Of a DNA stretch of 32,000 bases, positions 12,126-30,906 are shown piece by piece. This DNA comes from Planctopirus limnophila DSM 3776 (lineage in GTDB: Bacteria > Planctomycetota > Planctomycetia > Planctomycetales > Planctomycetaceae), in assembly GCF_000092105.1 (NCBI RefSeq), contig NC_014148.1, forward strand, positions 870,001-902,000, given 5' to 3'. Every line of letters starts with the position of its first letter. Within the stretch, counting starts at the first letter, position 1. The notes under the pieces are model-generated. The model was given only the letters and a program-made list of their open reading frames with translations, did not search any database and had not been told where the DNA came from. A program made the position numbers and the translations under genes.

Positions 12126-13157
12126 TCACCTGCGGTGAAAGCATTGAGGTAGCGTCAGGATGGCGTCGAAAAGGTCGCGTGTCACGTTGGTTTCAACAGC
12201 CATGCGGGGCACAGCTAAAGAATCGACCCGAGATGCTGTGCCGTAACCTCCAAAATAGGTGAACGACCAGTCGAAGCCGTGATAGGCTAACAGCTCACGG
12301 GTATCGTTGTTAAAACTCCCTCGACCGCCCACCGGGAAGCTGAACCATCGGCACGCTTTACCCAGCTCTTCGGTCAATCGCTGCTGGCAGTTGCCAATCT
12401 CGAAATTCTGTTCATCGCGGGATAGGTTCGCCAGGATCGGGTGAGTGGTGGTATGTCCGCCAAAAGACATCCCGCCACGCTGCATTTCTCGAATCTGGTC
12501 CCAGTTCATCCACAACTTTTCACCGATCAGCTCAGGAGCCCGGCCTGTGCCTAAAGCTTCACCCAGGTAATTCATGAAGAGCTTCGTCCGGCCCCCATTG
12601 AGCGTTTTATAACGCTTCAACAATGTCTTCACAGCTTTCTGACGATCCGGCTCATCAAAAGTGATGGTTTCCATAGACCATTCGCTGGCCGGCAAATGAC
12701 TACGCGGTGATGTCCTGACCATCCAGGCAATCTCATCCCACCAGGGGACGAGATGGTGATCGATAAAGCCGGTTGTCACAAAGAACACGCACGGCGTGTT
12801 GTAGGCTTTCAGAATCGGAAAGGCAAATTCGTAGTTATCAATGTATCCATCATCGAATGTCAACATGACATGCCGACCTCGACGGCTGAAGGCATCTGTC
12901 AGTTCTTCGGGACGAATCACATCAAAGTCGAGACTCACTCTCCTCACCTGGTATTCGAAATCTTCGATCGAAGCGCTCCACAGCTCTCGATCCAGCAAAG
13001 AATTCGAACCATCTCCAACTCGATGGTAATTCAGAATCAAGACACCATTCCACAGAGGGCAACGGCGCAGAATCGGCCCGCACCCTGAGGAACTCAGAGC
13101 CTTAGCGAACAGTTCTTGCTTCGATAATCCCCAAGGCATGCCTATGAATTCCTTCAA
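12126..13157 (-). CDS. Polysaccharide deacetylase (NodB-homology) family protein
   Basis: 343 aa. Contains LTFDDGYIDNYEFAFPILK (the TFDDG motif), FFVTTGFI, and GGHTTTHP (the His-His metal motif). It converges on the DUF1080 gene with only a 4-nt gap. Confidence 0.85.
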   Translation of the reverse strand: MKEFIGMPWGLSKQELFAKALSSSGCGPILRRCPLWNGVLILNYHRVGDGSNSLLDRELWSASIEDFEYQVRRVSLDFDVIRPEELTDAFSRRGRHVMLTFDDGYIDNYEFAFPILKAYNTPCVFFVTTGFIDHHLVPWWDEIAWMVRTSPRSHLPASEWSMETITFDEPDRQKAVKTLLKRYKTLNGGRTKLFMNYLGEALGTGRAPELIGEKLWMNWDQIREMQRGGMSFGGHTTTHPILANLSRDEQNFEIGNCQQRLTEELGKACRWFSFPVGGRGSFNNDTRELLAYHGFDWSFTYFGGYGTASRVDSLAVPRMAVETNVTRDLFDAILTLPQCFHRR

Positions 13158-13782
13158 TTCATCAATCGAGTCGAATCACTCTTCACCAGACCAATTCTTA
13201 GCAGGTATCAACAACCGGCTGAAATGTTGACCTGAAACTTATACCCCACGATTCAAATCTGGCATTCTCGTAAGCTTCGGCTGTTTTCTTTCACCTCTTG
13301 ATGCAAATCGACTGCATTCAGTCTAGTGCGAGTTTCTCGACGGGAGCCTTTAAGAGTGCTCAAGTTTTCAATGATCTCAGATAAATTATATACTTAAAAT
13401 CGTTATTACCGGTCGACACGTTACAATCGATACAAACGACCAATGTCCAACCTGTCGATGATCAACTCGCAAGCTTCATCATTCCCGGTTCCCTGGAGAC
13501 ACATGGCATACGATCAGTCTTCTGTCGGAATGAACTCTTCCAAAGCGAGGGAAAACACTTATTCTTTGCCGTCAAAGTTGGAAGAATCGATACTCTCGTC
13601 GATTCGACTTCGTTCAAATTTCTTGAAGGTGGCATTCGTCATCGGGATGTTTCCAAAACGCAACCTAGGTTCACAATTGTCCCGATCGATCATCCGAAGT
13701 GAGCCCGGGACGTGTGATCACTGTCGCACTCCAGCGGTCAACACCACCAATTCTTCGGACTGGCACCGTGCAGGTAAGTGTC

Positions 13783-16700
13783 ATGCTCGATGCGTTTCAA
13801 TCGGTTTCGCTGTTGTGGGTGATGTGCGCCGCCATTCTCGTCTTCATGATGCAGGGTGGTTTCTGCCTGCTGGAAGCGGGTGTGACCCGCACCAAGAACA
13901 GCATTAACGTCGCGCTGAAAAACCTCACAGACTTTTGCATTTCAGCCATGATCTTCTGGCTGTTTGGCTACGGCATCATGTTCGGCCACTCTGCCTATGG
14001 GTGGATTGGCACTTCTCGCTTCATGCCTGATGAGCAATTCTTCTCCATTGGTAGTACCCCCACAGCGGCCTCGGCCATCGCGTTAGGATTTTTCCTGTTC
14101 CAGATGATGTTCTGCGGAACATCGACCACGATTGTTTCGGGTGCCGTCGCAGAGCGAATTCGCTTCGCCGGGTATCTGGTCCTCACCGTTGTACTTTCCG
14201 GATTGATCTATCCATTGTTTGGTCACTGGGCATGGGGCGGGGCGGATACAGGATCTCCCACCGGTTGGCTGGCAAAACTGGGCTTTGTCGATTTTGCAGG
14301 CTCGACTGTTGTCCACGCCATTGGCGGATGGTTCTCTCTAGCTGCTGTCATCATTATTGGCCCCAGACTGGGACGCTTTGATACCAAAGCTCCTCGCATT
14401 CGTGGACATAACCTCGTTTTGGCAACCTGCGGTGTCATGCTCCTCTGGGTCGGCTGGTTTGGCTTTAATGGCGGCAGCACATTAGCACTCAATTCACAGG
14501 TTCCTCGAATTCTGGTCGCTACCAACCTGGCTGCGATTGCCAGTTGTTTAACAGCTCTCTTTATGGCCTGGTGGATCGAGAAACGTGCCATTGTTGAAAT
14601 GACGCTCAATGGGGCACTGGGCGGGCTCGTGGCCGTGACCGCGTCATGCCACATTATTCCCTTTTGGGGAGCGGTCCTCTTGGGTGTTGGTGCCGGTGTC
14701 ATCTCCGTCGCAGTTACTTATTTACTCGATGATTTCAAGATCGACGATGTCGTCTCTGCAGTTCCTGTTCACGCAGCCTGTGGACTCTTTGGAACCGTCT
14801 TCTGGCCACTCTTTACTCCTGAGCAAAGTTTCCAGCACGGCATGAGTTGCCTGCAGCAGTTTGGTGTGCAGTTGCTGGGCTCCGGGGTCGCGTTTGTCTG
14901 GGCATTTGGTGTCGGTGGAGTCTGTATTTATCTGATTAATAAAGTCATGCCTCTGCGCGTCAGAGCCCGCGACGAAATTGTGGGATTGAACTTTGTCGAA
15001 CATGGGGCTTCCAACGACCTGGCCGAACTAATGAGTACCATGAACGATCATCGGACCCGCGGTGATTTCAGCCAGCATGTCTTTGTTGAGCCCCATAGCG
15101 AAGTCGGCCAGATCGCTGCAGAATACAACCGCGTGCTGGATCGCGTGACGGATGAAATTCGTGCCCGCGAAGAAACCACCCACGCCTTGAAATCGGCCGA
15201 AGAAAAATATCGCAGTATCTTTGAAAACGCCGTCGAAGGGATCTTTCAAACCTCGCCGAGCGGGATCTACATGAATGTGAATCCTGCTCTGGCCAAGATC
15301 TATGGCTACGATTCCCCCAACGATCTGATTGGCTCAATCGGCGACATTTCGAAAGATCTTTATGTCGATCCACAAAGACGGGCTGAGTTCTGCCGTCTGA
15401 TTGAAACGGAAGGGGCCGTCAAAGGTTTTGTCTCGGAAGTTTACAGGCGTGATGGCAGTACCATCTGGATCTCCGAAAACGCTCATCCGGTGAAGAATGC
15501 CGCTGGTCGCATTTTATACTATGAAGGCTCTGTAGAGGATGTCACCGAGGTTCGCCGAGCTGAACAATGGCGAGCAGAAAAAGCCGAAGCTGAAGCTGCT
15601 AACGAAGCTAAAAGCCAATTTCTCGCCAAGATGAGTCACGAAATCCGGACTCCGCTCAACGGTGTCATTGGCATGCTCGACTTGCTTAAAGCCACCTCGC
15701 TCGATGATCGCCAGAAACGCTACGTGACCATCTGTCGTTCATCGGCCGATACCTTGCTGGGTTTAATAAACGATATTCTCGATCTCTCCAAAATCGAGGC
15801 CGGTCGTATGGAACTGGCTCTTGTTGATTTTGATCTGCACCAACTGGTCGAAGATATCTCCGAGATGTTTGTCCATCGTGCGGAAGGTAAAGGAGTCGAG
15901 CTGGCCTGCCATATTGCTCCCGATGTCCCTCAACGAATTGAAGGGGATCCAGAACGGTTGCGGCAGATCCTGGTCAATCTTGTCGGTAACGCTCTCAAGT
16001 TTACTTCTGTCGGCTATGTCCTCATCAAGGTTTCGATGGCTCAATCCCCGACTGGGGAGCATCGCTTGCAGATCCATGTCAAAGATACAGGGATCGGAAT
16101 TTCGCCAGCTCAGCAACAAAAACTCTTCCAGCCCTTTACCCAGGCAGATGTCACCACATCTCGTCGATTTGGCGGTACCGGGTTGGGGCTATCGATCTGC
16201 CGTCAGTTGGCCGACCTGATGCAGGGATCGATACAGATAGAGAGTGCCGTCGGTGTCGGTACGACATTTACTGTCGACCTGCCGTTAACCTCTGCTGAGG
16301 TTTCAAAAGTCGCTCCAGAGCATGAGCCATTAGCCGGACTGCGTGTTCTGCTGGTCGATGATAACGAAATTAACCTCGAAATTCTCAGCGAACATCTGGT
16401 TGCCTGGGGTTGCCGGGTCAGTAAATGCCTCTCGGCAGAGACCGCATTATCGCTATTAAGTAAACCAGCCACCACAGGTCCAGCTTTCTCGATTGCCATT
16501 ATCGATAAGCAAATGCCAGGCTTTGATGGTGAAATGCTCGCTGGCAGCATTCGCAAGTACGCACACCTGGATTCCCTGCGCATTCTCATGCTCACCAGTG
16601 TCGACTTCAGTGATGCAGCAGTGGATGGGATCCCTCCGTGGGATGCGTGGATCAATAAACCTGTCCGGGCAGGACGTCTGCTCGAGATGTTGCAGAAACT

Positions 16701-17751
16701 GCGCGACTACGTTCCTTTAGAAAATGCTCGTGAATTGTCTGCACAACAGCCACTATCAGAAACCAAAACACCTTCTGCGAGAATTTTGATTGCCGACGAT
16801 AATGAGGTCAACCTGATTGTGACCACCGAGCTGGTCAGGTCATTAGGCTTCGATACAGAGACAGCCGCTGATGGGTCAATTGTCCTGGAGAAACTGAAAT
16901 CGCAAACTTATGACCTGATACTTATGGATTGCCAGATGCCGACCCTCGACGGCTTCGAAACCACACGGAAGATTCGAGAAATCGAAAAACAAGCTCAGAA
17001 CGGAGAGCATATTCCGATTGTTGCTTTAACGGCGAACGCTATTCAGGGAGATAACGATCGCTGCCGACAGGCTGGCATGGATGGCTATCTCACAAAGCCG
17101 ATTGACCATGCTCAATTGAGTAACACGTTGTTGCAAATACTGACAACTCATCAGCCGGTTCCACAGCAAGAACACAAAGTTGATATTGAGTTATCCAGCA
17201 ACAAGAATCTGGTAACACAATTGTCCCCGGTCTCTGTAGGAACAATTCCACAAGTAGTGACGGCTATTGAAACGATTTCACCTGCAAAAAATATTACGAA
17301 GTCGATTCTTTCTTCAGTCTCTAGTGATTCCATTGCGATACCAGAGGCCATCATTAATGTTCATCAGCAATCGATCGAAGCGGTGCAATTTCAGGAATTG
17401 GTCAATCGCTGCCGGAGAGATCACGAGTTCGCCCTGAGAGTTCTTCAAAAATTCGCCACCCGGGTACTGGCCGATAAGGCACAATTCGCACTCGCTTTAG
17501 CTGCTGAAGATTCGAAAACTCTCAAATCGTTATCTCACTCCTTGAAAGGTGCCGCAGCTAACGTTGGTGCGACTCGATTGGCCCAATTGGCTGGAAATCT
17601 CGAAGAGCAGATCAGTGACGAGTCTTTAACTGTTCACGAACAGAATCTGAATGACTTATTCAATGAAATTGATACAGTCAGAGAATGGATCGATCGAAAG
17701 CTTCTGGCGGAGCATGCTCCAGCCAGTGCTGCTGGATCGGTGGCTCTCTAG
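13783..17751 (+). CDS. Ammonium-transporter (Amt) domain fused to a PAS / HisKA-HATPase / REC / REC / Hpt hybrid sensor kinase
   Basis: The ORF-track frame is 13699-17751; I prefer the ATG at 13783 (MLDAFQSVSLLWVMCAAILVFMMQGGFCLLEAG, a typical Amt N-terminus). Amt signatures include FVDFAGSTVVHAIGGW (His codon 14314-14316) and VPVHAACGLFG (His 14770-14772). The PAS region spans about 15200-15560. The H-box SHEIRTPLNG has its His at 15637-15639. HATPase N, G1 and G2 boxes are present (NLVGNALKFT, DTGIGIS, GGTGLGLSI). REC1 Asp is at 16504-16506 (IAIIDKQMPGFDG) and REC2 Asp at 16927-16929 (LILMDCQMPTLDG). The Hpt His is at 17536-17538 (SHSLKGAAANVGA). Confidence 0.9.
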   Translation: MLDAFQSVSLLWVMCAAILVFMMQGGFCLLEAGVTRTKNSINVALKNLTDFCISAMIFWLFGYGIMFGHSAYGWIGTSRFMPDEQFFSIGSTPTAASAIALGFFLFQMMFCGTSTTIVSGAVAERIRFAGYLVLTVVLSGLIYPLFGHWAWGGADTGSPTGWLAKLGFVDFAGSTVVHAIGGWFSLAAVIIIGPRLGRFDTKAPRIRGHNLVLATCGVMLLWVGWFGFNGGSTLALNSQVPRILVATNLAAIASCLTALFMAWWIEKRAIVEMTLNGALGGLVAVTASCHIIPFWGAVLLGVGAGVISVAVTYLLDDFKIDDVVSAVPVHAACGLFGTVFWPLFTPEQSFQHGMSCLQQFGVQLLGSGVAFVWAFGVGGVCIYLINKVMPLRVRARDEIVGLNFVEHGASNDLAELMSTMNDHRTRGDFSQHVFVEPHSEVGQIAAEYNRVLDRVTDEIRAREETTHALKSAEEKYRSIFENAVEGIFQTSPSGIYMNVNPALAKIYGYDSPNDLIGSIGDISKDLYVDPQRRAEFCRLIETEGAVKGFVSEVYRRDGSTIWISENAHPVKNAAGRILYYEGSVEDVTEVRRAEQWRAEKAEAEAANEAKSQFLAKMSHEIRTPLNGVIGMLDLLKATSLDDRQKRYVTICRSSADTLLGLINDILDLSKIEAGRMELALVDFDLHQLVEDISEMFVHRAEGKGVELACHIAPDVPQRIEGDPERLRQILVNLVGNALKFTSVGYVLIKVSMAQSPTGEHRLQIHVKDTGIGISPAQQQKLFQPFTQADVTTSRRFGGTGLGLSICRQLADLMQGSIQIESAVGVGTTFTVDLPLTSAEVSKVAPEHEPLAGLRVLLVDDNEINLEILSEHLVAWGCRVSKCLSAETALSLLSKPATTGPAFSIAIIDKQMPGFDGEMLAGSIRKYAHLDSLRILMLTSVDFSDAAVDGIPPWDAWINKPVRAGRLLEMLQKLRDYVPLENARELSAQQPLSETKTPSARILIADDNEVNLIVTTELVRSLGFDTETAADGSIVLEKLKSQTYDLILMDCQMPTLDGFETTRKIREIEKQAQNGEHIPIVALTANAIQGDNDRCRQAGMDGYLTKPIDHAQLSNTLLQILTTHQPVPQQEHKVDIELSSNKNLVTQLSPVSVGTIPQVVTAIETISPAKNITKSILSSVSSDSIAIPEAIINVHQQSIEAVQFQELVNRCRRDHEFALRVLQKFATRVLADKAQFALALAAEDSKTLKSLSHSLKGAAANVGATRLAQLAGNLEEQISDESLTVHEQNLNDLFNEIDTVREWIDRKLLAEHAPASAAGSVAL

Positions 17752-17801
17752 TGTCGTCTATTGGTGATCGTGTGGTTCTCCGGTAACAAGGAGCGTCAGA
17801 G

Positions 17802-18815
17802 ATGAAAATCCTGATTGTTGATGATGACGACATGATCCTCGAAATGCTCGAACATACGTTAGTACCTGCAGGGTACGAGGTCCTTCGTGCCCATAATGGA
17901 ACGACGGCTCTGGAGATTCTTTCGCAAGAACCCTGTCGACTCGTGATTTCTGACTGGGATATGCCCGGCATGAGCGGAATCGACCTCTGCAGAGCCGTCC
18001 GCTCTCAGGACTTCGTCAGCTATGTCTATGTCCTGCTGCTTACCAGCCATAATAGCCGGGAGTCGCTGGTGGAAGGGATGATTGCCGGCGCCGATGATTT
18101 TGTGAACAAACCCTTCGATCCCGAAGAACTTCTGGTGAGGTTAAGAGCCGGAGTCAGAGTTCTCTCGCTGGAAACTCGTGAAGTCCTCATTCACTCGCTC
18201 GCCAAACTCACCGAATCCAGAGATCCGGATACGGGCCACCATCTGGAACGTGTTCAGCATTATTCACGAGTTCTGGCCGATGAATTGAGCCGCTCAGAGC
18301 GTTATCGCGACATGATCGACGCCGAGTTCATCCGTCTGGTCTTCCTCACCAGTCCGCTGCACGATATCGGTAAAGTCGGTGTGCCCGATAGCGTACTCCT
18401 CAAGCCGGGGAAGCTGACGAGTGAAGAATTTGAAGTCATGAAGCGACATACGACGTTAGGCTCGGAAACGCTGTCTTCAGCACTCGAACGCATGCCCGAA
18501 GCCAGATTTCTGCAAGTCGCCCGAGACATCGCTGCCAGCCATCATGAAAAATTCGATGGCTCAGGCTATCCCGCCGGTCTTAAAGGAACAGAGATTCCAC
18601 TGGCTGCCCGGATTGTGGCACTGGCCGATGTCTACGATGCGTTAACCACCAAACGCGTTTACAAGGAAGCCTGTTCTCCCGAAGTCACTCGTGAGATTAT
18701 CGTCAATTCTTCCGGGACTCATTTCGACCCGGATATTGTGGACGCCTTCATCTCCTGCGAGCACATGTTTGATGTGATTCGCGAACAGTTTATGGATATC
18801 TCAAAACTCTCCTGA
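17802..18815 (+). CDS. Response regulator with HD-GYP domain (RpfG-type, predicted c-di-GMP phosphodiesterase)
   Basis: 337 aa. The REC domain has DD (ILIVDDDD), a phospho-acceptor Asp at 17952-17954 (LVISDWDMPGMSG), LLTS and NKPF. The HD-GYP domain has HLERVQHY, SPLHDIGKVGVP (HD at 18360-18365) and HHEKFDGSGYP (GYP at 18564-18572). It starts 50 nt after the kinase stop on the same strand. Confidence 0.92.
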   Translation: MKILIVDDDDMILEMLEHTLVPAGYEVLRAHNGTTALEILSQEPCRLVISDWDMPGMSGIDLCRAVRSQDFVSYVYVLLLTSHNSRESLVEGMIAGADDFVNKPFDPEELLVRLRAGVRVLSLETREVLIHSLAKLTESRDPDTGHHLERVQHYSRVLADELSRSERYRDMIDAEFIRLVFLTSPLHDIGKVGVPDSVLLKPGKLTSEEFEVMKRHTTLGSETLSSALERMPEARFLQVARDIAASHHEKFDGSGYPAGLKGTEIPLAARIVALADVYDALTTKRVYKEACSPEVTREIIVNSSGTHFDPDIVDAFISCEHMFDVIREQFMDISKLS

Positions 18816-18822
18816 GAGAAAC

Positions 18823-18844
18823 GCCTCTCGCTGCCAGAGGTTTT
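18823..18844 (+). terminator. Weak intrinsic-terminator-like hairpin after the HD-GYP gene
   Basis: CCTCT (18823-18827), a 7-nt loop, AGAGG (18835-18839), then TTTTT (18840-18844), beginning 8 nt after the stop codon. The stem is only 5 bp, so support is weak. Confidence 0.3.
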
Positions 18845-22535: not shown

Positions 22536-25079
22536 ATGACAGGCATGAATCCCGCACCTATCCTGATCCGCAATCTTTACGTGCACAATCTGCAGGGAGT
22601 CGATATCGAGATTCCCCTGCAGCAGCTCGTCGTGGTCAGCGGGGTGAGTGGTTCAGGGAAGTCGAGCCTGGCCTTCGATACACTGTTTGCAGAAGGTCAG
22701 CGGAGTTACATCGAAACTTTTTCACTGGCCACGAGGCAACTTCTCGAAAAGTTCGAGCGTCCTGCCGTCGATCGACTGGAAAACATTCCGCCGACAATCG
22801 CCCTGCGACAACTCGCCCAGACAGGTGACAAATCTCGAAGCCAGTATGTCGATGCTCAAAACTTCGGCTCTGTGACCAGCATTGCCGACCATTTGAAGCT
22901 GCTGTTTCTCCGCTGTGGCAGCGTGATCTGTCCCACTTGCCAGCGTAAAATCACTTCATCCTCTCCGGCAGAGGTGGCCCAGCGGCTTGCAAAACTCCCA
23001 CAGGGAACACGAATTCTGGTGACCATGAAGGTACCGGAAAAATCGGCTCTTCAATTATCTTTCGACTCACAAACTGCAGGTCCCAGCCGGAATTCAACGA
23101 AGCGTACCGCACCGCCTCGCTTACCAACAGAAAAAGCACATCAGGCTCTCATCGAAGAACTCCGTCAGCAAGGTTTTCGCCGAGGTCTCTTTCAAACAGA
23201 AGCTCTCTCCGAAAACTTTGTCACTCACGAATTTTCTAAGGATCTGCCACAGCATTTCGAACTTGTCGCCGTCATTGTTGATCGCTTAATCGCAGGCTCA
23301 CAAACCATCGAACGCATGCTCGAAAGCTGTGAAACAGCCATGCGATACGGGGCCGGCGCGATCGGTCTTTGGGCACAAACTCCTCTACCGGAAAGCGCCT
23401 ATCTTGCCTGCACAATTGATGGCCAGGCGTGGTACCGGCACGAGTTCAACACACGTTACCGATGCGAACCTTGCCAGCGAGATTTCCCGAAGCCACAACT
23501 GGCACTGCTCGATGATGAGCCCCCCCCACAAACCCCACCAGCCTCACAAACCATAGCAAGCACCGTCTCACCCTCGACGATCTTCCAGCAGTCATTGAGC
23601 CTGGGGAATGTCAGTTGGCAAAATGCTGGCAAACAATCGCTGGATCAACTCGAGTATTTGCTTCAGCAAGCCCGGAAGGAATACTTCGCTTCTGGGAGTT
23701 TCGAAGAGACTTCGAACCTGCGAGATCAATCCTTGTGGGAGCATGTTCTCCAGAGAATTGAATGGTGCCGCAGGCTCGGATTGGATCACCTGCCGCTTTT
23801 CCGAAGCGTCAGTGGTCTTTCGGGAACTGAATATCGTCGGGCCAGGCTCATCCCGCTCCTCTCAGCGGGTCTGGTCAATACGCTCTATATTCTGGATGAG
23901 CCACTCGCCGGACTGGATGACCAGACAGCGTGCATCGTGCTCGACGCCATCCAGAGCCTCTTAAAGAGTGGCAACAGCCTGCTCATGGTCGAGCACCATC
24001 CCCTGGCGAAAAAACGAGCCAACTTTGTGATCGAAATGGGCCCGGGAGCTGGCAGTGAAGGAGGCCGCATCGTTTACGCTGGTTCTTCTCCTGCGCCAAC
24101 TCAGCCATGGCCGGAACATGATCAGGTCAAACTCACTGCACCAAGGGTCTTGCGGGAACCCGCCGGCTGGATCGATCCCGGCCCGATCAACCTCAAAAAT
24201 CTCCAGCAATTTCAATGGAAGCTTCCACTGGGTCTGCTCTGCGTCGTCACGGGTCCGCATGGATCTGGGAAATCAGCGGCACTCATCGATGCTCTTCAGC
24301 CGACTTCCCATGGAGACACACTTCCTGCACTCGCTGGCCATCCCCTCTGGATGGTCGATTCGTCACCATTGAAAGGACAGCCTAGCCAGATGCTGATCGG
24401 CTTGCTCGATCTTTTCGGAGAAGTTCGAGCACTCTTCGGCCAGACACCAGAAGCCAAAAACCGGCAATTGACAGCCAGGTTCTTCAGCCTGCATGTTGCC
24501 CAGAGTGGACGCTGCTCTCAATGCAAGGGGACTGGCCAGATCTCTGCCGATCTCACCTTTTTCAATGAAGCCTCGATGACCTGCCCGAACTGTCACGGGA
24601 AGCGTTACCGCCGCGATGCTCTGGAGATTCGCTACCGGGGGCTGAATATTGCGGAAGCACTTGATCTGACTGTCGCGGAAGCCCTCACCTACTTCAAAGG
24701 GCACCACAAACTTCAAAGCATGCTCACGACGCTCTCTCGCACAGGATTGAGATACCTGCGCCTGGGGCAAACTTTGAAGTCACTCTCCGGCGGAGAACGA
24801 CAACGCATCAAACTGGCCCTGGCACTTGGTCAGCCCGTCGAAAATGGCATTTTTATCTGCGATGAGCCCACCATGGGCCTGCACGATCAGGATGCTCACC
24901 AATTAATGCATGCCTTTCTGGAACTGGTCAGCATTGGCCACACCGTCTGGCTGGCCGACATCCATCCCGTGGCATTATCCTGGGCAGACTGGGTGATTCA
25001 GCTCGGCTCGCAAACTCCGCTGACGTTGCCAGAAGTCTTGTTTTCTGGTCCAGCGACCACATTCCGTCAGAGCGAATAG
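22536..25079 (+). CDS. UvrA-like ABC ATPase (short, divergent paralogue of excinuclease ABC subunit A)
   Basis: 847 aa. The N-terminus NLQGVDIEIPLQQLVVVSGVSGSGKSSLAFDTLFAEGQRSYIETFS closely parallels UvrA. A second Walker A (VTGPHGSGKSA) is present. The C-terminal zinc module is CSQCKGTGQ...CPNCHGKRYRRDALEIRYRG, the second signature is LSGGERQRIKLA, and Walker B is IFICDEPTMGLH. See the findings for degenerate features. Confidence 0.85.
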   Translation: MTGMNPAPILIRNLYVHNLQGVDIEIPLQQLVVVSGVSGSGKSSLAFDTLFAEGQRSYIETFSLATRQLLEKFERPAVDRLENIPPTIALRQLAQTGDKSRSQYVDAQNFGSVTSIADHLKLLFLRCGSVICPTCQRKITSSSPAEVAQRLAKLPQGTRILVTMKVPEKSALQLSFDSQTAGPSRNSTKRTAPPRLPTEKAHQALIEELRQQGFRRGLFQTEALSENFVTHEFSKDLPQHFELVAVIVDRLIAGSQTIERMLESCETAMRYGAGAIGLWAQTPLPESAYLACTIDGQAWYRHEFNTRYRCEPCQRDFPKPQLALLDDEPPPQTPPASQTIASTVSPSTIFQQSLSLGNVSWQNAGKQSLDQLEYLLQQARKEYFASGSFEETSNLRDQSLWEHVLQRIEWCRRLGLDHLPLFRSVSGLSGTEYRRARLIPLLSAGLVNTLYILDEPLAGLDDQTACIVLDAIQSLLKSGNSLLMVEHHPLAKKRANFVIEMGPGAGSEGGRIVYAGSSPAPTQPWPEHDQVKLTAPRVLREPAGWIDPGPINLKNLQQFQWKLPLGLLCVVTGPHGSGKSAALIDALQPTSHGDTLPALAGHPLWMVDSSPLKGQPSQMLIGLLDLFGEVRALFGQTPEAKNRQLTARFFSLHVAQSGRCSQCKGTGQISADLTFFNEASMTCPNCHGKRYRRDALEIRYRGLNIAEALDLTVAEALTYFKGHHKLQSMLTTLSRTGLRYLRLGQTLKSLSGGERQRIKLALALGQPVENGIFICDEPTMGLHDQDAHQLMHAFLELVSIGHTVWLADIHPVALSWADWVIQLGSQTPLTLPEVLFSGPATTFRQSE

Positions 25080-25225: not shown

Positions 25226-25241
25226 TGGTATAGCGTTTGCT
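25226..25241 (+). promoter_or_regulatory. Sigma-54 (-24/-12) type promoter candidate upstream of glnA
   Basis: TGGTAT-AGCGT-TTGCT, with GG at 25227-25228 and GC at 25239-25240. This has exactly the consensus spacing of TGGCAC-N5-TTGCW and lies 62 nt upstream of the glnA ATG. It resembles the classical enterobacterial glnAp2 arrangement. No enhancer site was identified. Confidence 0.4.
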
Positions 25242-25302
25242 TAACTATGGAGAACTGATTTCTGTTACCTCCTTGCGCCAGGAGTTGCCTTTCGTGACTG
25301 AT

Positions 25303-26715
<1,413 letters not shown>

Positions 26716-26898: not shown

Positions 26899-27078
26899 GT
26901 GTTCTTGGTAACCACAAGGATCAAACCAGCCCGTTGGGTTGAGTGAAAAGTGTGTGGTTTCTCCAATTTGCTGACGGGATTTGGAGTTTTTCGAGCGCAA
27001 GGCCTCCCAGTACGTTGTTCAAAGGTTTTGCTTTCATTCCCTACTGACAAATGCCAAATACGGCTTACACTATTGGGC

Positions 27079-30000
27079 ATGGGCACTCTCGACGAAATTC
27101 AGCGACTAAATGATGGCCAGTTTCATCGGCTTGGTGACGACCTGCTACGCAGGAGCGAATCCCGATACCGGCGTCTTCGAACCCACGGTTTGAACGAACG
27201 TGGGGAGAGCATCAAAGGCCAGCCAGATTCCTATGTTGGAGAGACCGCTGCGACTTGTAGCGTGGCGGTTTGTTACACAGTGCAACGATCTGGTTGGTGG
27301 AACAAAGTGGTGCAAGACGTCGGGGAGGCTGTTGCGGCTTGTCCGATGGCGACCGGGGTGGTTGTAGTCATTCCGCACAATGCCGACCGAGATGGCCCCC
27401 AGGACAAGACAATTGATTGGCTTTCAGAGGCACGTGCGGCAGCTGGCAAAGCAATCCTCCGGGTGATCGACGGGCGGGAAATTAGCCAACTGCTCGATAC
27501 GGATCATCAAGACCTGAGACACAACCATCTAGGCATCCCTTACTCCCGCCTCTCTGGGTCTAGTATCCTTGCCAGCTGTCGAATGGCCTCGCAGACTGCA
27601 ATCGATTACATAAGAGGGAGCGGCAGGTATGACCCAGAAAGGTATTCTCACCGGAGTTCCGACAGAGAGCTATATCGGGTGTGGCAGTCGGCGTACCGGT
27701 ACAATGACAGCAGCGACCGGCGTGTTGCCCCTATCCGATTGATCGCACTCGTGAACGACTCTGGGGTTGGGAAGACCAGTCTGGTTTGTGAGCTCACCCG
27801 CACACTTGGGGCGGTTCTTCCGGTTCTGCTCATTCAGGCCCGAGATATCGAGTTCGGTCCGGAGGACAAACTCGTTGCCGCCGTGATAAACTATGCCCAA
27901 GGGTTCCTGGATCCATCTACCCGTGTGATCGAAGAGGCGGCTTTGTCCAAGCTGCTGTCCGGTTCAGTGCCCCTGACGGTAGTGCTGGATGGATTAGATG
28001 AAGCACACAATCCAGAGGCCGTACGCAAAGCAATCACCTTCTGGTTGAGGTCGAAATTGTGCCAGGTCAGCATTTTGGTGGTGACCTCACGTCGGGAGTT
28101 TTGGCAAACCTGTGTGGACTCGTCTTGGGTCAAATGGATGCCCACCTCGAACCTCGACGACCGCTCGCCGGTGAAAGTCGCTGAACGCTTGCAAGTCGAA
28201 AAGAGTGATCCGGCTGCGGGCCTTCCGCTTCCTGACCGCTTCAACGAAGGAGAGCTTGAGGCGGCATGGCTGCGGGCTGGCCGGACTCGTTCGGAGTTGG
28301 CTATCTTGCCAGCCGATGCGAGAGAAGAATTACGTCATCCATTCACGCTCCGAGTGTTTCTTGACCTTCAGATGCAAGAAGGTCTTTCGCCGAAGAAGGT
28401 AACGAGGGCGGCCCTGTTGGAGTGTTGGTTGAATCACCGCCTCGATGCAGAGACGCTTACAAGTGAGCGGATCACCCGCAGCCACTTTCAACAAGCGCTT
28501 CGAATGGTGGCGAGCCGGATTGCCGAAACCAGTCATTGCTCCGTATCCGTGGACGAACTATCGGAAGTGCCTCGTTTTGACTCCTCACATCCGCCGGGTC
28601 CAATCCTTCAACGGATGATTGAAGCGGGCATCCTGGAAAGCCTGCCAAACCAATCCGATCGCATCAGATTTACGGTTGAAACAGTCCAGGACTTCTACCG
28701 GGCTGAAGCGGATGTCGAGGACATCAAGAGCAACCCTGCACATATAGCGGAAGCCTTCTCGCAGCTTCCGTTTACGACGGCGTACTCCAGGCTTGTGCGA
28801 ATAGGGTCCCGGCTCATCGGCGAGGATGTTCGTCACGAGTTCATCCAGCGGCTACTGGAAGCGTCTCCAATAAAAGCTGCCATTGTTGTGCGAGCACATC
28901 CGGATTGCTACACGGCAGAAGTCAGGACAAGAATCGCAGGTGAACTCGGTGCTCAAATCACAGACCGTCATCGTGTTCGGGCTGCGATGGCGATAACTCT
29001 GCTCGGAGAGTTGAACTGTCAAGAAGCTATCGACGTACTTGGGAAGCATCTTCTCCCTCCTGCTGACCTTCACAACGACCTGAAGTCCCTCGGCGCGACA
29101 GCATTTACAAAACTTAGCTATGCTCCCGCCGCGGCTTTTGTATACCGCTGGCAGTGGTTCGGCACGCGCCAAGGCAACGACACTTACTACTTTAAGGATC
29201 TCTTGGCATTCATTCGTGATGCGACATTTGAATTCCGGCTTGCCCTGGCGGATCAGTCCGTCCTACAACTCTCAAGTGCCACTGGTACGAAGGAACATGT
29301 CAATGCAGTGACAGTGCTGGCCTATCTAGGCGATTGCCGTCTTGTGGATCACTTGGCTTCCCGACTCACCCAGAACGTACTGCTCGAGCACTACGAGAAC
29401 CACGCCCTGATTGCCCTCGGATCGGATGCAGCTGGAAGGCTCTTCGCCCAGTCTGTGAAAGCGATTGGGGACCGTCTCGCTCCGCTGCCAGACGATCATG
29501 CTAATAACGATGCTCGGAACGAATTGATCGGACTGGTCCACTTCGTGGTTAGTGACGTGCGCTACCTTTTAACGCCTGCTTTTGAGCCGCATATTAAACA
29601 ACTCATCGAAAATGCCAATCCAGACGTATCATGGATTGCTATTCACTTAGCAAAACGAGCTCATGCCGTATCGCTGCTGTACCCTGCCGCAATAGCCGCT
29701 TCCAAGCGGAGTGGCTGGATTGAGTTGGATCACGGTGAGGAACGAAGTTGCGTGAGTGCCGACGAGTGGTTGAGATGGTGGCGGCAATCAACCGACGTTG
29801 CAATTCGCCAAAAATTACTGAGACTGCTTCCCCGTTACCCGAATGCAGAGATCGAAGAGATCCTTCTAGATTGCCTCGACTTGCCTGAACTGTGTGCATC
29901 AACGGCGACACGGCTTGGAGAATACGGGGCGATCCGCTCGGCACCTCGTCTACGGGAGATTCTTTCCGAAGCGGTCACCACCGATGACCAATCGGCCAAG

Positions 30001-30906
30001 TCGTCAGCCGCTCATGCGTTAGGTGATTTGAGGGACGTGGCTGCAGTGCCGCTTCTGGAGAAGCTTGCCACTGAGCATTCTGACGAATGGGTCGGGCTGC
30101 AAGCGATTGCGAGCCTCGGCCTGATTGGGAACTCAGAAGCCGAGTCCGCCCTAGGCCGTCTTCATCAACTTCAAAAAGGGGACGGCATTGAGGACCACAT
30201 ATTTGAAGCCCTCCTCTGTTGTGGCTCTCCCACGGCAGTCGCAGAGGTGATCAAGCATGCAAGTTCACGACTGGACGGCTCTGAGTGGCTGTGTGAACGA
30301 CTTGGCCGCCTTTCCTGGATGCGTGGGTGGCGATGTGGCGAGTACTACACACATATTTACACAGCTGAGTTAGTTGACTACCTGAAATCTCACTGCAAAC
30401 TGGGCTCCCCTGAAAAGAACTGGGACATTGGGGATGCCTTTCGTCAAATCGATAGCCCGGAAGTTCGGACACTGCTACAGAAGTGGGGGAATCGCCGTGG
30501 ATCGCCTGAAGATGCGGTTGTGCGGGAAAGCGACCAGCGGCGGCTTTCGGATATGTGCTATTGGGAACTTCGAAATCGTGGCGACATATCGGCCATTAGT
30601 TACACACTCGATGAATGTGCTGATGACAGGGACGATATTTACGTCGCACGTGCCGCTCTCCTTCTTCAAACTTTCCCCACCGCTGCAGTTGCCAATCAAC
30701 TTCAGTCACGGCTCAACGTGGCGACAACGATATCCGAGACGCTGAGAATGCTCGCCTTGCTCGGTCGGTTTGGACAGCAGGCTGACGCTGAACTCGCAGC
30801 TAAGTTTGTGAATCATGCTAACGACTTGGTGGCGAATGTGGCATGTGAAACCATGCTGCGTCTGAGCGATCCATTGCTCGTACCGGGTCGCTGGCGAGAG
30901 ATGTAG
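27079..30906 (+). CDS. STAND-class NACHT-type P-loop NTPase with an N-terminal restriction-endonuclease-like module and C-terminal HEAT-like repeats
   Basis: The track ORF is 26950-30906; I prefer the ATG at 27079 (MGTLDEIQRL...), giving ~1275 aa. Walker A is LVNDSGVGKTSLVCEL (Lys codon 27772-27774). The NACHT-style Walker B is LTVVLDGLDEA (27988-28002). Then comes ILVVTSRREFW, followed by a winged-helix-like stretch. From about nt 28990 to the end there are repeated HEAT/PBS-lyase-like units (for example AAMAITLLGELNCQEAIDVLGKHL, NAVTVLAYLGDCRLVDHLASRL, SSAAHALGDLRDVAAVPLLEKLATEHSDEWVGLQAIASLGLIGNSEAESAL). Confidence 0.85.
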   Translation: MGTLDEIQRLNDGQFHRLGDDLLRRSESRYRRLRTHGLNERGESIKGQPDSYVGETAATCSVAVCYTVQRSGWWNKVVQDVGEAVAACPMATGVVVVIPHNADRDGPQDKTIDWLSEARAAAGKAILRVIDGREISQLLDTDHQDLRHNHLGIPYSRLSGSSILASCRMASQTAIDYIRGSGRYDPERYSHRSSDRELYRVWQSAYRYNDSSDRRVAPIRLIALVNDSGVGKTSLVCELTRTLGAVLPVLLIQARDIEFGPEDKLVAAVINYAQGFLDPSTRVIEEAALSKLLSGSVPLTVVLDGLDEAHNPEAVRKAITFWLRSKLCQVSILVVTSRREFWQTCVDSSWVKWMPTSNLDDRSPVKVAERLQVEKSDPAAGLPLPDRFNEGELEAAWLRAGRTRSELAILPADAREELRHPFTLRVFLDLQMQEGLSPKKVTRAALLECWLNHRLDAETLTSERITRSHFQQALRMVASRIAETSHCSVSVDELSEVPRFDSSHPPGPILQRMIEAGILESLPNQSDRIRFTVETVQDFYRAEADVEDIKSNPAHIAEAFSQLPFTTAYSRLVRIGSRLIGEDVRHEFIQRLLEASPIKAAIVVRAHPDCYTAEVRTRIAGELGAQITDRHRVRAAMAITLLGELNCQEAIDVLGKHLLPPADLHNDLKSLGATAFTKLSYAPAAAFVYRWQWFGTRQGNDTYYFKDLLAFIRDATFEFRLALADQSVLQLSSATGTKEHVNAVTVLAYLGDCRLVDHLASRLTQNVLLEHYENHALIALGSDAAGRLFAQSVKAIGDRLAPLPDDHANNDARNELIGLVHFVVSDVRYLLTPAFEPHIKQLIENANPDVSWIAIHLAKRAHAVSLLYPAAIAASKRSGWIELDHGEERSCVSADEWLRWWRQSTDVAIRQKLLRLLPRYPNAEIEEILLDCLDLPELCASTATRLGEYGAIRSAPRLREILSEAVTTDDQSAKSSAAHALGDLRDVAAVPLLEKLATEHSDEWVGLQAIASLGLIGNSEAESALGRLHQLQKGDGIEDHIFEALLCCGSPTAVAEVIKHASSRLDGSEWLCERLGRLSWMRGWRCGEYYTHIYTAELVDYLKSHCKLGSPEKNWDIGDAFRQIDSPEVRTLLQKWGNRRGSPEDAVVRESDQRRLSDMCYWELRNRGDISAISYTLDECADDRDDIYVARAALLLQTFPTAAVANQLQSRLNVATTISETLRMLALLGRFGQQADAELAAKFVNHANDLVANVACETMLRLSDPLLVPGRWREM

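What the first reader, a model, noticed from the sequence alone, without database searches (positions are those of the whole stretch)
13783..18815. Amt-domain sensor kinase plus HD-GYP response regulator: candidate ammonium-to-c-di-GMP signalling module
**Seen in sequence.**
- A complete Amt channel domain is present, with twin-His (14314-14316, 14770-14772) and the FVDFAGS motif.
- It is fused in-frame to a coiled coil, a PAS domain, a HisKA-HATPase core, two receiver domains and an Hpt domain. All phospho-sites are intact.
- 50 nt downstream, on the same strand, is a REC-HD-GYP regulator with intact HD, HHE and GYP motifs.
- No glnK/PII gene accompanies the Amt domain, whereas amtB is usually paired with glnK.
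- glnA, with a sigma-54-type promoter candidate, lies 7.5 kb away.
- A ~90-aa AT-rich, Ser/Ile/Val-rich linker (about 17150-17400) separates REC2 from Hpt.

**Established knowledge.** Amt-histidine-kinase fusions exist, and one (Ks-Amt5 of the anammox planctomycete Kuenenia stuttgartiensis) has been characterised as an ammonium sensor rather than a transporter. HD-GYP domains hydrolyse c-di-GMP.

**Inference.** External ammonium would be read by the Amt pore and relayed His-Asp-His-Asp to the HD-GYP regulator. This would couple nitrogen availability to c-di-GMP-controlled lifestyle decisions. As far as I know, that output has not been tied to Amt sensors.
Basis: partly seen in the sequence, partly recalled or inferred. 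Interest (0 to 1): 0.7.

Follow-up and report, generated by a model that had tools for sequence, protein, structure and literature searches.

The report
Ammonium receptor kinase with c-di-GMP phosphodiesterase
A two-gene operon of the freshwater bacterium Planctopirus limnophila joins an ammonium-transporter-like receptor to a multi-step kinase and a partner enzyme that probably degrades the second messenger c-di-GMP, which gives the first genomic candidate for the still-unidentified output of this kind of ammonium sensor.

Summary
Window 13783-17751 (+) encodes a 1322-aa Amt-HAMP-like-PAS-HisKA-HATPase-REC-REC-Hpt protein. Window 17802-18815 (+) encodes a REC-HD-GYP regulator. All claimed catalytic and phospho-acceptor residues are present. 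The window is Planctopirus limnophila DSM 3776.

The Amt domain is a published "AmR" sensor type, not a transporter type. Its closest structures are Sd-Amt1 and Ks-Amt5, and every N1/N2 ammonium-site ligand is invariant in homologs.

In 11 of 11 loci with an Hpt, a REC-HD-GYP gene lies directly downstream. This holds for 0 of 3 Hpt-less relatives and about 9% of Amt-less hybrid kinases.

The novelty claim is wrong as written. Sd-Amt1, an Amt receptor fused to a diguanylate cyclase, tied ammonium to c-di-GMP in 2024. No searched paper describes the conserved kinase-to-HD-GYP output. A 2026 paper still calls the Ks-Amt5 regulator unidentified, and Ks-Amt5 is an orphan kinase.

Verdict: a new variant of a known kind, combining an AmR input with an RpfC/RpfG-type phosphorelay output. 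The mechanism is inferred, and the direction of the response is a guess by analogy. Moderate interest.

The parts
13783..17751 (+). Gene for the 1322-aa ammonium-receptor hybrid histidine kinase (Amt-HAMP-like-PAS-HisKA-HATPase-REC1-REC2-Hpt)
   Evidence: ORF. Pfam domains. 100% identical to the P. limnophila protein P0001.
13816..15012 (+). Amt-like receptor domain (aa 12-410), 11-TM ammonium transporter fold
   Evidence: PF00909 E 5.9e-112. Best PDB hits are Sd-Amt1 8qj3 (8e-108) and Ks-Amt5 6eu6 (7e-92), against AmtB at about 1e-38.
13852..14139 (+). N1/N2 ammonium-sensing site residues Q24, E31, K46 (switch), N47, D50, F51, T116, S119
   Evidence: Aligned one-to-one with the Sd-Amt1 and Ks-Amt5 ligands. 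The transporter Af-Amt1 has V/Y/L/S/S/L/A/T at these positions. Invariant in 22 homologs, except S119 in 21 of 22.
14314..14316 (+). Twin-His residue H178
   Evidence: CAC codon. Invariant.
14770..14772 (+). Twin-His residue H330
   Evidence: CAC codon. Invariant.
14608..14610 (+). N276, equivalent to the exit-constricting Asn269 of Sd-Amt1 (Ser251 in the transporter Af-Amt1)
   Evidence: Alignment. Paper. Invariant in 22 of 22 homologs and present in 46 of 47 representatives.
15004..15228 (+). HAMP-like helix-connector-helix plus signalling helix (aa 408-482)
   Evidence: Weak Pfam HAMP hit, E 0.0097, below cut-off. Aligns with the Sd-Amt1 linker up to aa 470. AF2 model: helix 408-426, connector 427-439, helix 440-482, pLDDT 78-90.
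15202..15549 (+). PAS domain (aa 474-589)
   Evidence: PF13426, PF00989 and PF08448. PAS fold in the model with pLDDT above 90.
15607..16290 (+). Kinase core: HisKA (H619 at 15637-15639) and HATPase_c
   Evidence: PF00512 E 1.7e-22 and PF02518 E 8e-31. H619 invariant.
16339..16692 (+). Receiver 1 (D908 at 16504-16506, K959)
   Evidence: Pfam Response_reg, 2 stretches. D908 conserved in at least 90% and K959 invariant.
16783..17127 (+). Receiver 2 (D1049 at 16927-16929, T1083, K1105)
   Evidence: Pfam best stretch 1001-1115. D1049, T1083 and K1105 invariant.
17143..17379 (+). Variable Ser/Ile/Val-rich tether between REC2 and Hpt (79 aa)
   Evidence: GC 0.414. Length 21-79 aa in homologs. Column identity 0.17 against 0.42-0.80 in the domains.
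17440..17688 (+). Hpt domain (H1252 at 17536-17538, HSLKG)
   Evidence: PF01627 E 6.7e-13. H1252 invariant.
17788..17793 (+). AAGGAG ribosome-binding site, 8 nt before the regulator's ATG, in the 50-nt intergenic gap
   Evidence: Sequence read. No terminator-like site lies between the two genes.
17802..18815 (+). Gene for the 337-aa REC-HD-GYP response regulator (RpfG-like)
   Evidence: PF00072 E 4e-27 and PF13487 E 4e-30. Best PDB hits are PmGH 4mcw (2e-47) and PA4781 4r8z (3e-46).
17952..17954 (+). Phospho-acceptor D51 of the regulator
   Evidence: D8, D9, D51, T81 and K103 invariant in 10 orthologs.
18240..18629 (+). HD-GYP active-site residues H147, H187-D188, H216, H247-H248-E249, G255-Y256-P257, D276 (with D143 just upstream)
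   Evidence: Aligned with the PmGH metal ligands. Invariant in 10 orthologs. Position 143 is E in 8 and D in 2.
18823..18841 (+). Terminator-like hairpin followed by a T-run, 8 nt after the regulator's stop, facing the convergent murF
   Evidence: This is a consensus match only, and the number of such sites in the region is at chance level.

Best explanation
This is a two-gene operon encoding an ammonium-responsive phosphorelay that controls c-di-GMP breakdown.

Gene 1 is a sensor-type Amt protein (an 'AmR' ammonium receptor).
1. Periplasmic NH4+ is selected by the normal Amt vestibule, Phe gate and twin-His.
2. Instead of leaving through the cytoplasmic funnel, which is narrowed by Asn276, it is diverted past Glu31 into the lateral N1/N2 pocket (Q24, E31, N47, D50, T116, S119).
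3. As shown for Sd-Amt1, occupancy should flip the K46/Y131 switch and move the C-terminal end of the Amt domain.
4. That motion would be passed through a HAMP-like unit, a signalling helix and a PAS domain to the kinase core.
5. Phosphate then runs H619, to a receiver Asp (D1049 of REC2, with REC1 D908 possibly modulatory), to Hpt H1252, to D51 of the gene-2 product.

Gene 2 is an RpfG-like REC-HD-GYP enzyme whose c-di-GMP phosphodiesterase activity is thereby switched.

By analogy, ammonium raises Ks-Amt5 phosphorylation and phosphorylation activates RpfG. The most likely sign is therefore that more external ammonium gives less c-di-GMP.

Shown here: domain anatomy, an intact sensing site, intact phospho-sites and catalytic residues, and conserved operon pairing that tracks the Hpt domain.

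Inferred: ammonium binding, signal direction, phosphotransfer partner, substrate, and any effect on lifestyle.
For: (1) Architecture and residues.

(2) The Amt domain is nearest to the two characterised receptors: 8qj3 at 364 bits and 6eu6 at 312 bits, against about 135 bits for AmtB.

(3) All N1/N2 ligands plus K46, Y131 and N276 match Sd-Amt1 and Ks-Amt5. The transporter Af-Amt1 differs at every one. They are invariant in 22 full-length homologs and nearly so in 47 diverse representatives.

(4) A REC-HD-GYP gene lies directly downstream on the same strand, with gaps of -4 to +125 nt. In L168 the gap is +106 nt after a split-off Hpt ORF. This holds for the window, L001, L081-L085, L088, L165, L166 and L168. 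These span Planctomycetales and Pirellulales genera, and no other synteny is shared.

(5) The Hpt-less relatives L167, L169 and L092 lack it. Background among Amt-less similar kinases is 7 of 78.

(6) Regulator residues D51, T81, K103 and all HD-GYP metal ligands and GYP are invariant in 10 orthologs. The closest structures are the active c-di-GMP phosphodiesterases PmGH and PA4781.

(7) Precedents: ammonium enhances Ks-Amt5 phosphorylation and activates the Sd-Amt1 cyclase. RpfC (HK-REC-Hpt) phosphorelay activates RpfG (REC-HD-GYP) as a c-di-GMP phosphodiesterase.

(8) No PII gene accompanies any of these loci.
Against: - No biochemical data exist for this protein.
- Proteins with the N1/N2 signature include proven transporters (plant AMT1s), so 'sensor only' is not guaranteed.
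- The spacer between F51 and T116 is 64 aa. This is outside the published 54-60 range because of a 10-residue loop insertion.
- The PAS domain could bring in a second, dominant signal.
- Two receivers leave the relay route ambiguous.
- The first PmGH metal ligand (Glu) is Asp143 here, so metal stoichiometry and substrate preference are open.
- HD-GYP enzymes can prefer pGpG or 3'3'-cGAMP (5z7c is also a hit), or can act through protein contacts.
- Adjacency shows co-inheritance, not phosphotransfer.
- The kinase-regulator identity correlation (r 0.51) is also expected from vertical descent alone.
- The loci are phylogenetically related, so 11 of 11 is not 11 independent events.
Confidence: 0.62

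Rival explanations
1. Transceptor. The Amt domain both transports ammonium for assimilation and signals, so the protein is a working transporter with a kinase tail rather than a pure receptor.
For: - All pore elements are intact: W151, S232, F110, F228, H178, H330.
- The Sd-Amt1 authors say structure alone cannot exclude transport, and that N1/N2-bearing plant AMT1s do transport.
- NCBI annotates the protein simply as 'ammonium transporter'.
Against: - Both characterised fused N1/N2 proteins showed charge displacement, not translocation.
- The exit-narrowing Asn276 and Glu31, in place of the transporter's Ser and Tyr, are invariant.
- There is no glnK partner.
Confidence: 0.2
2. The regulator's output is not c-di-GMP hydrolysis. 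It might act on another nucleotide (pGpG, 3'3'-cGAMP), or mainly as a phosphorylation-dependent adaptor that binds GGDEF or PilZ proteins, as RpfG also does.
For: - V-cGAP3 (5z7c) is the third-best structural relative, at 4e-33.
- PA4781 is the second-best hit, and from my own knowledge it prefers pGpG.
- The first trinuclear-site ligand is Asp rather than Glu in this protein.
- RpfG acts partly through its GYP-dependent complex with GGDEF proteins.
- In L081 a MASE1-GGDEF gene follows the regulator directly.
Against: - The closest relative is the active c-di-GMP phosphodiesterase PmGH, with 7 of 8 ligands identical.
- Eight of 10 orthologs have the Glu at position 143.
- The best NCBIfam family is a c-di-GMP phosphodiesterase regulator, although below its cut-off.
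Confidence: 0.1
3. The Amt domain is a membrane anchor and trimerisation scaffold. The real input is cytoplasmic and is read by the PAS domain, for example redox state or a metabolite.
For: - The PAS domain is as conserved as the Amt domain, with column identity 0.66 against 0.69.
- An Amt-less paralog, PAS-HK-REC-REC-Hpt with a 62% identical HD-GYP partner, exists in L002.
Against: - A mere anchor would not keep every pore and N1/N2 ligand invariant across 22-47 proteins at 45-55% identity.
- No known cofactor motif was recognised in the PAS domain by Pfam.
Confidence: 0.05
4. The adjacent regulator is only one branch, or not the main target. The Hpt feeds other regulators elsewhere in the genome.
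For: - Hpt domains often serve several receivers.
- Two receivers in the kinase hint at branching or a phosphate sink.
- Hpt-less family members (L167, L169, L092) must signal differently.
Against: - Strict co-occurrence of Hpt and the HD-GYP regulator, 11 of 11 against 0 of 3.
- Overlapping or near-abutting reading frames in several genomes, with gaps of -4, -1 and +1 nt.
Confidence: 0.1

Closest known systems
Sd-Amt1 of Shewanella denitrificans (PDB 8qj3, 8qj4, 8qpf; PMC11152129)
   Same: - Closest solved relative of the Amt domain (8e-108).
- The alignment continues through the HAMP linker to aa 470.
- The N1/N2 ligands are identical, including Phe at the D-F/T position, the Lys/Tyr switch and the exit Asn.
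- It links ammonium to c-di-GMP.
   Different: - Sd-Amt1 is a one-component protein whose fused GGDEF cyclase makes c-di-GMP when ammonium binds.
- Here the transducer is a PAS-hybrid kinase with Hpt, and the c-di-GMP enzyme is a separate, phosphorylation-controlled HD-GYP hydrolase.
- The expected sign is therefore opposite, and the signal passes through four phosphoryl transfers.
Ks-Amt5 (kuste3690) of Candidatus Kuenenia stuttgartiensis (PDB 6eu6; PMC5764959)
   Same: - An Amt receptor fused to a HisKA-HATPase kinase.
- The same N1/N2 site, with the same residue numbers Q24, E31, N47, D50.
- A planctomycete origin.
- Ammonium-enhanced phosphorylation was shown for it.
   Different: - Ks-Amt5 is 679 aa with no HAMP-like linker, PAS, REC or Hpt.
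- Its clade is restricted to anammox Brocadiales.
- It and its Brocadia ortholog are orphan kinases with no adjacent regulator.
- Its regulator is still unidentified (PMC12918730).
- It is the more distant of the two solved receptors: 312 bits against 364 bits.
RpfC/RpfG of Xanthomonas campestris (PMC3749722)
   Same: - A hybrid kinase (HisKA-HATPase-REC-Hpt) relays phosphate to a REC-HD-GYP regulator encoded in the same operon.
- Phosphorylation activates c-di-GMP hydrolysis.
- UniRef auto-names the window protein 'RpfC'.
   Different: - RpfC senses the fatty acid DSF through its own membrane input domain and has one receiver.
- Here the input is an Amt receptor plus PAS, and there are two receivers.
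- This is an analogue in logic, not an ortholog.
AmtB-GlnK ammonium uptake system (E. coli, Archaeoglobus Af-Amt1)
   Same: The same 11-TM fold, vestibule Trp/Ser, Phe gate and twin-His.
   Different: - Transporters have Tyr and Ser lining an open exit and lack N1/N2 ligands: Af-Amt1 has V20, Y27, S43, S46, L47, A102, S251.
- They are paired with glnK, have no fused transducer, and score only about 135 bits.

Membership tests
AmR: sensor-type Amt ammonium receptors (Pfluger 2018, 2024) | Amt/Rh 11-TM domain with vestibule Trp/Ser, Phe gate and twin-His | tested here: met
   PF00909 E 5.9e-112. W151, S232, F110, F228, H178 and H330 are aligned to Sd-Amt1 W139, S225, F98, F221, H169 and H323. 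All are invariant.
AmR: sensor-type Amt ammonium receptors (Pfluger 2018, 2024) | N1/N2 ligand set Q, E, N, D, F/T, T, S/T at homologous positions | tested here: met
   Q24, E31, N47, D50, F51, T116 and S119 by alignment to 8qj3 and 6eu6. Conserved in 22 of 22 homologs, except S119 in 21 of 22.
AmR: sensor-type Amt ammonium receptors (Pfluger 2018, 2024) | Published signature spacing QX6EX15NX2D[F/T]X54-60TX2[S/T] | tested here: not met
   The spacer is 64 aa in the window protein because of a 10-residue insertion in the TM2-TM3 loop. 20 of 22 homologs have 54, and the strict regex matches 19 of 22. The residues are met and the spacing is not, so the regex is too narrow for this protein.
AmR: sensor-type Amt ammonium receptors (Pfluger 2018, 2024) | Glu in place of the transporter Tyr, and a bulkier Asn narrowing the cytoplasmic exit | tested here: met
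   E31 corresponds to Af-Amt1 Y27 and N276 to Af-Amt1 S251. N276 is invariant.
AmR: sensor-type Amt ammonium receptors (Pfluger 2018, 2024) | C-terminally fused cytoplasmic transducer | tested here: met
   PAS-HisKA-HATPase-REC-REC-Hpt.
AmR: sensor-type Amt ammonium receptors (Pfluger 2018, 2024) | Ammonium binding without net transport, and ammonium-dependent transducer activity | not testable with these tools
   Needs SSM electrophysiology and kinase assays.
HAMP-linked receptor (as in Sd-Amt1) | HAMP helix-connector-helix between membrane domain and transducer | tested here: inconclusive
   Pfam HAMP scores 16.7 bits, below the 25-bit cut-off. The segment is homologous to the Sd-Amt1 linker. 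The monomer AF2 model shows helix 408-426, a 13-aa connector and helix 440-482. A four-helix parallel bundle cannot be shown from a monomer.
Unorthodox hybrid histidine kinase phosphorelay (BarA/TorS/ArcB/RpfC type) | H-box His, ATPase domain, receiver Asp and Hpt HxxKG His in one polypeptide | tested here: met
   H619, HATPase_c at 107 bits, D908 and D1049 with DD, T/S and K, and H1252 in HSLKG.
Unorthodox hybrid histidine kinase phosphorelay (BarA/TorS/ArcB/RpfC type) | Orthology to a named member (NCBIfam equivalog cut-offs) | tested here: not met
   TorS 456 bits against a 676.5 cut-off, and BarA 441 against 890. The UniRef name 'RpfC' is automatic.
RpfG-like REC-HD-GYP c-di-GMP phosphodiesterase | Receiver with acidic pocket, Asp, Thr and Lys | tested here: met
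   D8, D9, D51, T81 and K103 are invariant in 10 orthologs.
RpfG-like REC-HD-GYP c-di-GMP phosphodiesterase | HD-GYP domain with HD, HHE and GYP motifs and the PmGH metal ligands | tested here: met
   PF13487 at 105 bits against a 27.2 cut-off. H147, H187, D188, H216, H247, H248 and D276 are identical to PmGH. The first ligand Glu is Asp143 here and Glu in 8 of 10 orthologs.
RpfG-like REC-HD-GYP c-di-GMP phosphodiesterase | c-di-GMP hydrolysis stimulated by phosphorylation | not testable with these tools
   Enzyme assay needed.
NosR-family c-di-GMP phosphodiesterase regulator (NCBIfam NF053512) | Score above the curated cut-off | tested here: not met
   185.9 bits against a 400 cut-off.
AmtB-GlnK assimilatory transporter | Adjacent glnK/PII gene and transporter-type exit lining | tested here: not met
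   No PII in the window or in any Amt-HK locus, with L064 as positive control. Exit residues are of the receptor type.

The most novel reading that the evidence does not exclude
The operon identifies the missing output of Amt-histidine-kinase ammonium receptors. In non-anammox Planctomycetota, external ammonium is read by an AmR pore and relayed through four phosphoryl transfers to an HD-GYP enzyme. Ammonium would then lower c-di-GMP, the opposite sign to the Sd-Amt1 cyclase, and so bias the sessile-versus-swarmer lifestyle of these budding bacteria.
Probability: 0.35. Interest if true: 0.6.

Novelty: new variant of a known kind. Interest (0 to 1): 0.47.

Why it matters
Two Amt-based ammonium receptors have been characterised. 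For the kinase type (Ks-Amt5), no response regulator is known, and a 2026 paper still says so. Ks-Amt5 itself is an orphan kinase, so its partner cannot be read from its genome.

The family found here is widespread in cultivable Planctomycetales and Pirellulales and carries its partner in the same operon. This turns "what do Amt kinases control?" into a directly testable question: phosphotransfer from the Hpt to D51, phosphodiesterase assays, and c-di-GMP measurements after ammonium shifts.

It would also show that the same receptor module can drive c-di-GMP up (Sd-Amt1 cyclase) or, here, probably down. That would tie nitrogen supply to attachment and motility decisions in a phylum whose signalling is almost unstudied.

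The survey also shows that this receptor module is a promiscuous input domain, fused to kinases, SpoIIE phosphatases, GGDEF-EAL and an MCP domain.

Tried and rejected
1. The single genome-contig scan with the full-length alignment chose generic motifs (WFGFNGGS, LD[FL]SKIEAG). It was swamped by ordinary hybrid kinases, and only L001 was a full-length relative.
2. The metagenome scan with the linker-PAS alignment was again dominated by PAS-only matches. It yielded only L085-L088, L092 and L102 as Amt fusions.
3. The look-up of P0034 found nothing on record.
4. My interim idea that this Amt clade is always wired to c-di-GMP enzymes rested on four loci (L003-L005 and L008, all GGDEF or GGDEF-EAL). 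The representative survey overturned it: 36 of 47 representatives are kinases and only 2 are GGDEF-EAL.
5. My local single-sequence Hpt HMM missed known Hpt domains, so its "no Hpt" counts were discarded in favour of Pfam.
6. A sigma-54 promoter for the operon was rejected. Window-wide motif counts are at chance, and no plausible GG-N10-GC site lies upstream of 13783.
7. glnA as part of the module was rejected, because it is absent from all other loci.
8. Rfam found no regulatory RNA in the window.
10. The mirror-tree correlation of kinase and regulator identities (r 0.51) is reported but not relied on, since shared descent explains it.
11. L102 suggested a direct Amt-to-HD-GYP arrangement. 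It turned out to be a frameshift-ridden contig with a different kinase type plus a REC-HD-GYP.

Full report
**Observation**

The two open reading frames exist as described. The first runs from ATG 13783 to 17751 on the + strand. The reading frame opens at GTG 13699, but the 1322-aa product from 13783 is 100% identical over its whole length to a protein of Planctopirus limnophila DSM 3776 (P0001). This also identifies the window's organism.

Pfam finds these domains in the first protein:
- a full Ammonium_transp domain (aa 12-410, E 5.9e-112)
- a PAS domain (474-589)
- HisKA (609-674) and HATPase_c (721-836)
- two receivers
- an Hpt domain (1220-1302)

A weak, sub-threshold HAMP hit lies at 425-455. 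The second ORF (17802-18815, 337 aa) is Response_reg plus HD_5, the HD-GYP family (E 4e-30).

- His178 and His330, both CAC codons at the stated coordinates
- FVDFAGS, H619, D1049 and H1252 in the kinase
- D51, HD 187-188, HHE 247-249 and GYP 255-257 in the regulator

The genes are 50 nt apart, with AAGGAG 8 nt before the second ATG and no terminator-like site between them. A hairpin followed by a T-run follows the second stop.

**The Amt domain is a receptor type, not a transporter type**

Against all PDB sequences, the best matches are 8qj3/8qpf and 6eu6 (364 and 312 bits). AmtB, Af-Amt1 and Mep2 score 135-164 bits. The two best hits are the only characterised Amt-based ammonium receptors:
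- 8qj3 is Sd-Amt1 of Shewanella denitrificans.
- 6eu6 is Ks-Amt5 of Kuenenia.

According to their authors (PMC11152129), these receptors keep the whole selectivity path of a transporter. Below the twin-His, however, they divert two NH4+ ions into a lateral pocket called N1/N2. The paper names the ligands, a Lys/Tyr switch, an Asn that narrows the cytoplasmic exit, and the Tyr and Ser that transporters have instead.

Read off the alignments, the equivalences are:

| Window protein | Sd-Amt1 | Ks-Amt5 | Af-Amt1 (transporter) |
|---|---|---|---|
| Q24 | Q22 | Q24 | V20 |
| E31 | E29 | E31 | Y27 |
| K46 | K44 | R46 | L42 |
| N47 | N45 | N47 | S43 |
| D50 | D48 | D50 | S46 |
| F51 | F49 | T51 | L47 |
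| T116 | T104 | T109 | A102 |
| S119 | S107 | T112 | T105 |
| Y131 | Y119 | not read | not read |
| N276 | N269 | not read | S251 |

In 22 full-length homologs at 45-77% identity all these positions are invariant, except S119 in 21 of 22. They remain so in 47 more diverse representatives.

The one formal failure concerns spacing. The published regex allows 54-60 residues between D-F and T, and this protein has 64 because of a 10-residue insertion in an outer loop. 20 of the 22 relatives have 54.

**Linker and tether**

The similarity to Sd-Amt1 continues past the membrane domain to residue 470, covering the segment its authors call a HAMP domain.

An AlphaFold2 model of residues 385-600 has mean pLDDT 84.7. 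It shows helix 408-426, a 13-residue connector, and a long helix 440-482 running into a confident PAS fold. This is the layout expected of a HAMP unit plus signalling helix. A monomer model cannot prove the bundle.

It varies from 21 to 79 aa among homologs and is unconserved, with column identity 0.17. It is a flexible tether, not a domain.

**The partner regulator**

The HD-GYP domain is closest to PmGH (4mcw, 2e-47) and PA4781 (4r8z, 3e-46), both c-di-GMP phosphodiesterases. The next hit is the cGAMP-specific V-cGAP3.

Seven of the eight PmGH metal ligands are identical. The first, a Glu, is Asp143 here and Glu in 8 of 10 orthologs. The receiver's D8, D9, D51, T81 and K103 and all catalytic motifs are invariant in the 10 orthologs.

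**The adjacency test**

The best 120 homologs in the protein database nearly all share the full architecture with Hpt; five of them lack it. They come from Planctomycetales and Pirellulales genera: Planctomicrobium, Calycomorphotria, Stratiformator, Blastopirellula, Bremerella, Lignipirellula and Anatilimnocola.

A REC-HD_5 gene of 334-377 aa lies immediately downstream on the same strand in the following loci, with gaps from -4 to +125 nt:
- the window
- L001
- L081, L082, L083 and L084
- L085 and L088
- L165 and L166
- L168, where the Hpt is a separate 69-aa ORF and the regulator follows it

Nothing else in the flanks is shared.

Three relatives without an Hpt lack the regulator:
- L167
- L169
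- L092, which is Amt-PAS-PAS-GAF-HK-REC-REC

Among Amt-less kinases of similar sequence fetched in the same scans, 7 of 78 have an HD-GYP gene in that position, and one of those seven is a degraded Amt fusion.

The pairing is therefore conserved, specific, and tracks the Hpt domain. This is what a His-Asp-His-Asp relay to that regulator predicts. The loci are related by descent, so the counts are not independent events, and adjacency is not phosphotransfer.

**Comparison with what is known**

The statement that a c-di-GMP output has not been tied to Amt sensors is outdated. Sd-Amt1 is an Amt receptor whose fused diguanylate cyclase is activated by ammonium.

Three full-text searches of the paper library found no paper describing an Amt kinase paired with an HD-GYP regulator.
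- The Ks-Amt5 paper names no regulator.
- A January 2026 paper says the regulator is "yet to be identified" (PMC12918730).

I looked at Ks-Amt5 itself. Its clade (about 680 aa, Amt-HisKA-HATPase only) is confined to anammox bacteria. Neither Ks-Amt5 nor a Brocadia ortholog has an adjacent regulator.

The output half resembles RpfC/RpfG of Xanthomonas. There, a HK-REC-Hpt kinase relays phosphate to a REC-HD-GYP protein and activates c-di-GMP hydrolysis (PMC3749722). The resemblance is one of logic, not orthology, because NCBIfam equivalog thresholds are not reached.

**Family landscape**

A search of 1.84 billion cluster representatives with the Amt+linker module gave 2551 hits at E<=1e-30. The best 150 are all fusion proteins of 526-1799 aa.

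Pfam on the top 47 gave these counts:

| Domain | Representatives (of 47) |
|---|---|
| Kinase ATPase (HATPase_c) | 36 |
| Receiver | 21 |
| Hpt | 14 |
| SpoIIE phosphatase | 3 |
| GGDEF-EAL | 2 |
| MCP signalling domain | 1 |

The nearest non-planctomycete genome loci are Amt-PAS-GGDEF(-EAL) proteins. The receptor is thus a widely reused input module, and the Hpt-containing kinase with its HD-GYP partner is one sizeable branch.

**Side claims**

No PII gene is in the window or in any Amt-kinase locus. This agrees with what the Sd-Amt1 authors describe for receptors as opposed to transporters.

glnA is at 25237-26715, with a probable start at 25303. A 2-mismatch sigma-54-like site, TGGTATAGCGTTTGCT, lies 62 nt upstream. 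Such matches are at chance frequency in the window. glnA is not near the module in any other genome, so it is not part of the module.

**Mechanism and verdict**

The best-supported reading has five steps:
1. External ammonium enters the pore and occupies N1/N2.
2. The Lys46/Tyr131 switch and the HAMP-like unit change kinase activity.
3. Phosphate passes H619, then D1049 (or D908), then H1252, then D51.
4. The HD-GYP enzyme's activity on c-di-GMP changes.
5. By analogy with Ks-Amt5 and RpfG, ammonium would lower c-di-GMP.

The anatomy, the residue conservation and the operon pairing are shown. Everything else is inferred.

This is a new variant of a known kind: a published receptor class joined to a published type of output. 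Its practical value is that it offers a tractable system for finding out what Amt kinases control.

Noticed in passing
L081:12837-14312: In genome GCA_021651095 a MASE1-GGDEF diguanylate cyclase gene follows the HD-GYP regulator by 17 nt on the same strand. The result is a three-gene cluster: Amt kinase, c-di-GMP hydrolase, c-di-GMP synthase.
   Followed up: no
L002:9803-13493: A Pirellulales MAG has an Amt-less 875-aa PAS-HK-REC-REC-Hpt kinase, with a core 55% identical to the window kinase. A 62% identical HD-GYP regulator lies directly downstream. This is the same output cassette without the Amt receptor.
   Followed up: partly
L168:5437-5646: In GCA_021733545 the Hpt domain is a separate 69-aa ORF between the Amt kinase and the HD-GYP regulator, and a transposase sits next to the locus. 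This may be a true split or a frameshift in the MAG.
   Followed up: no
L102:215-4157: A metagenome contig with many frameshifts carries an Amt-PAS protein with a different kinase H-box type (HNVGNVLN), followed by a REC-HD-GYP. This hints that the HD-GYP pairing may extend to another kinase class.
   Followed up: partly
Alignment A3 (representatives P0241-P0283): The same N1/N2-bearing Amt+linker module is fused to SpoIIE/PP2C phosphatases in 3 of 47 representatives and to an MCP chemoreceptor signalling domain in 1 of 47. As far as I know, no experiments exist on these outputs.
   Followed up: no
window 13936-14127 (aa 52-115): The published AmR signature regex (spacer X54-60) misses the window protein (64-aa spacer) and its closest relative P0002 (67). 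Both have an insertion in the loop between TM2 and TM3. It also misses 10 of 47 representatives. Four of those have a 53-residue spacer, and in some the F/T position is L, I or Y.
   Followed up: yes
window 25226-25241: A sigma-54-like element, TGGTATAGCGTTTGCT, lies 62 nt upstream of the probable glnA start (ATG 25303). It is the only GG-N10-GC site in the 250 nt upstream. Window-wide, matches of this quality are at chance frequency.
   Followed up: partly
window 26950-30906: A 1318-aa ORF downstream of glnA has HEAT repeats and a weak, sub-threshold NACHT-type NTPase hit. It may be a STAND-class signalling ATPase.
   Followed up: no
window 22536-25079: An 847-aa UvrA-like ABC ATPase (UvrA_inter and ABC_tran domains) is divergent from murE and murF. 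It is shorter than canonical UvrA and may be a UvrA paralog.
   Followed up: no
L170:1-18040: In this Kuenenia assembly the Ks-Amt5 gene is surrounded by transposase fragments and DruA-family genes, with no signalling genes within 8 kb.
   Followed up: partly
window 13158-13782: A 625-nt AT-richer intergenic region lies upstream of the operon (GC 0.48 for 13001-14000). It has only one weak sigma-70-like match (13365-13394) and no Rfam hit. The overlapping 154-aa ORF 13443-13907 has no Pfam match and is probably spurious.
   Followed up: partly
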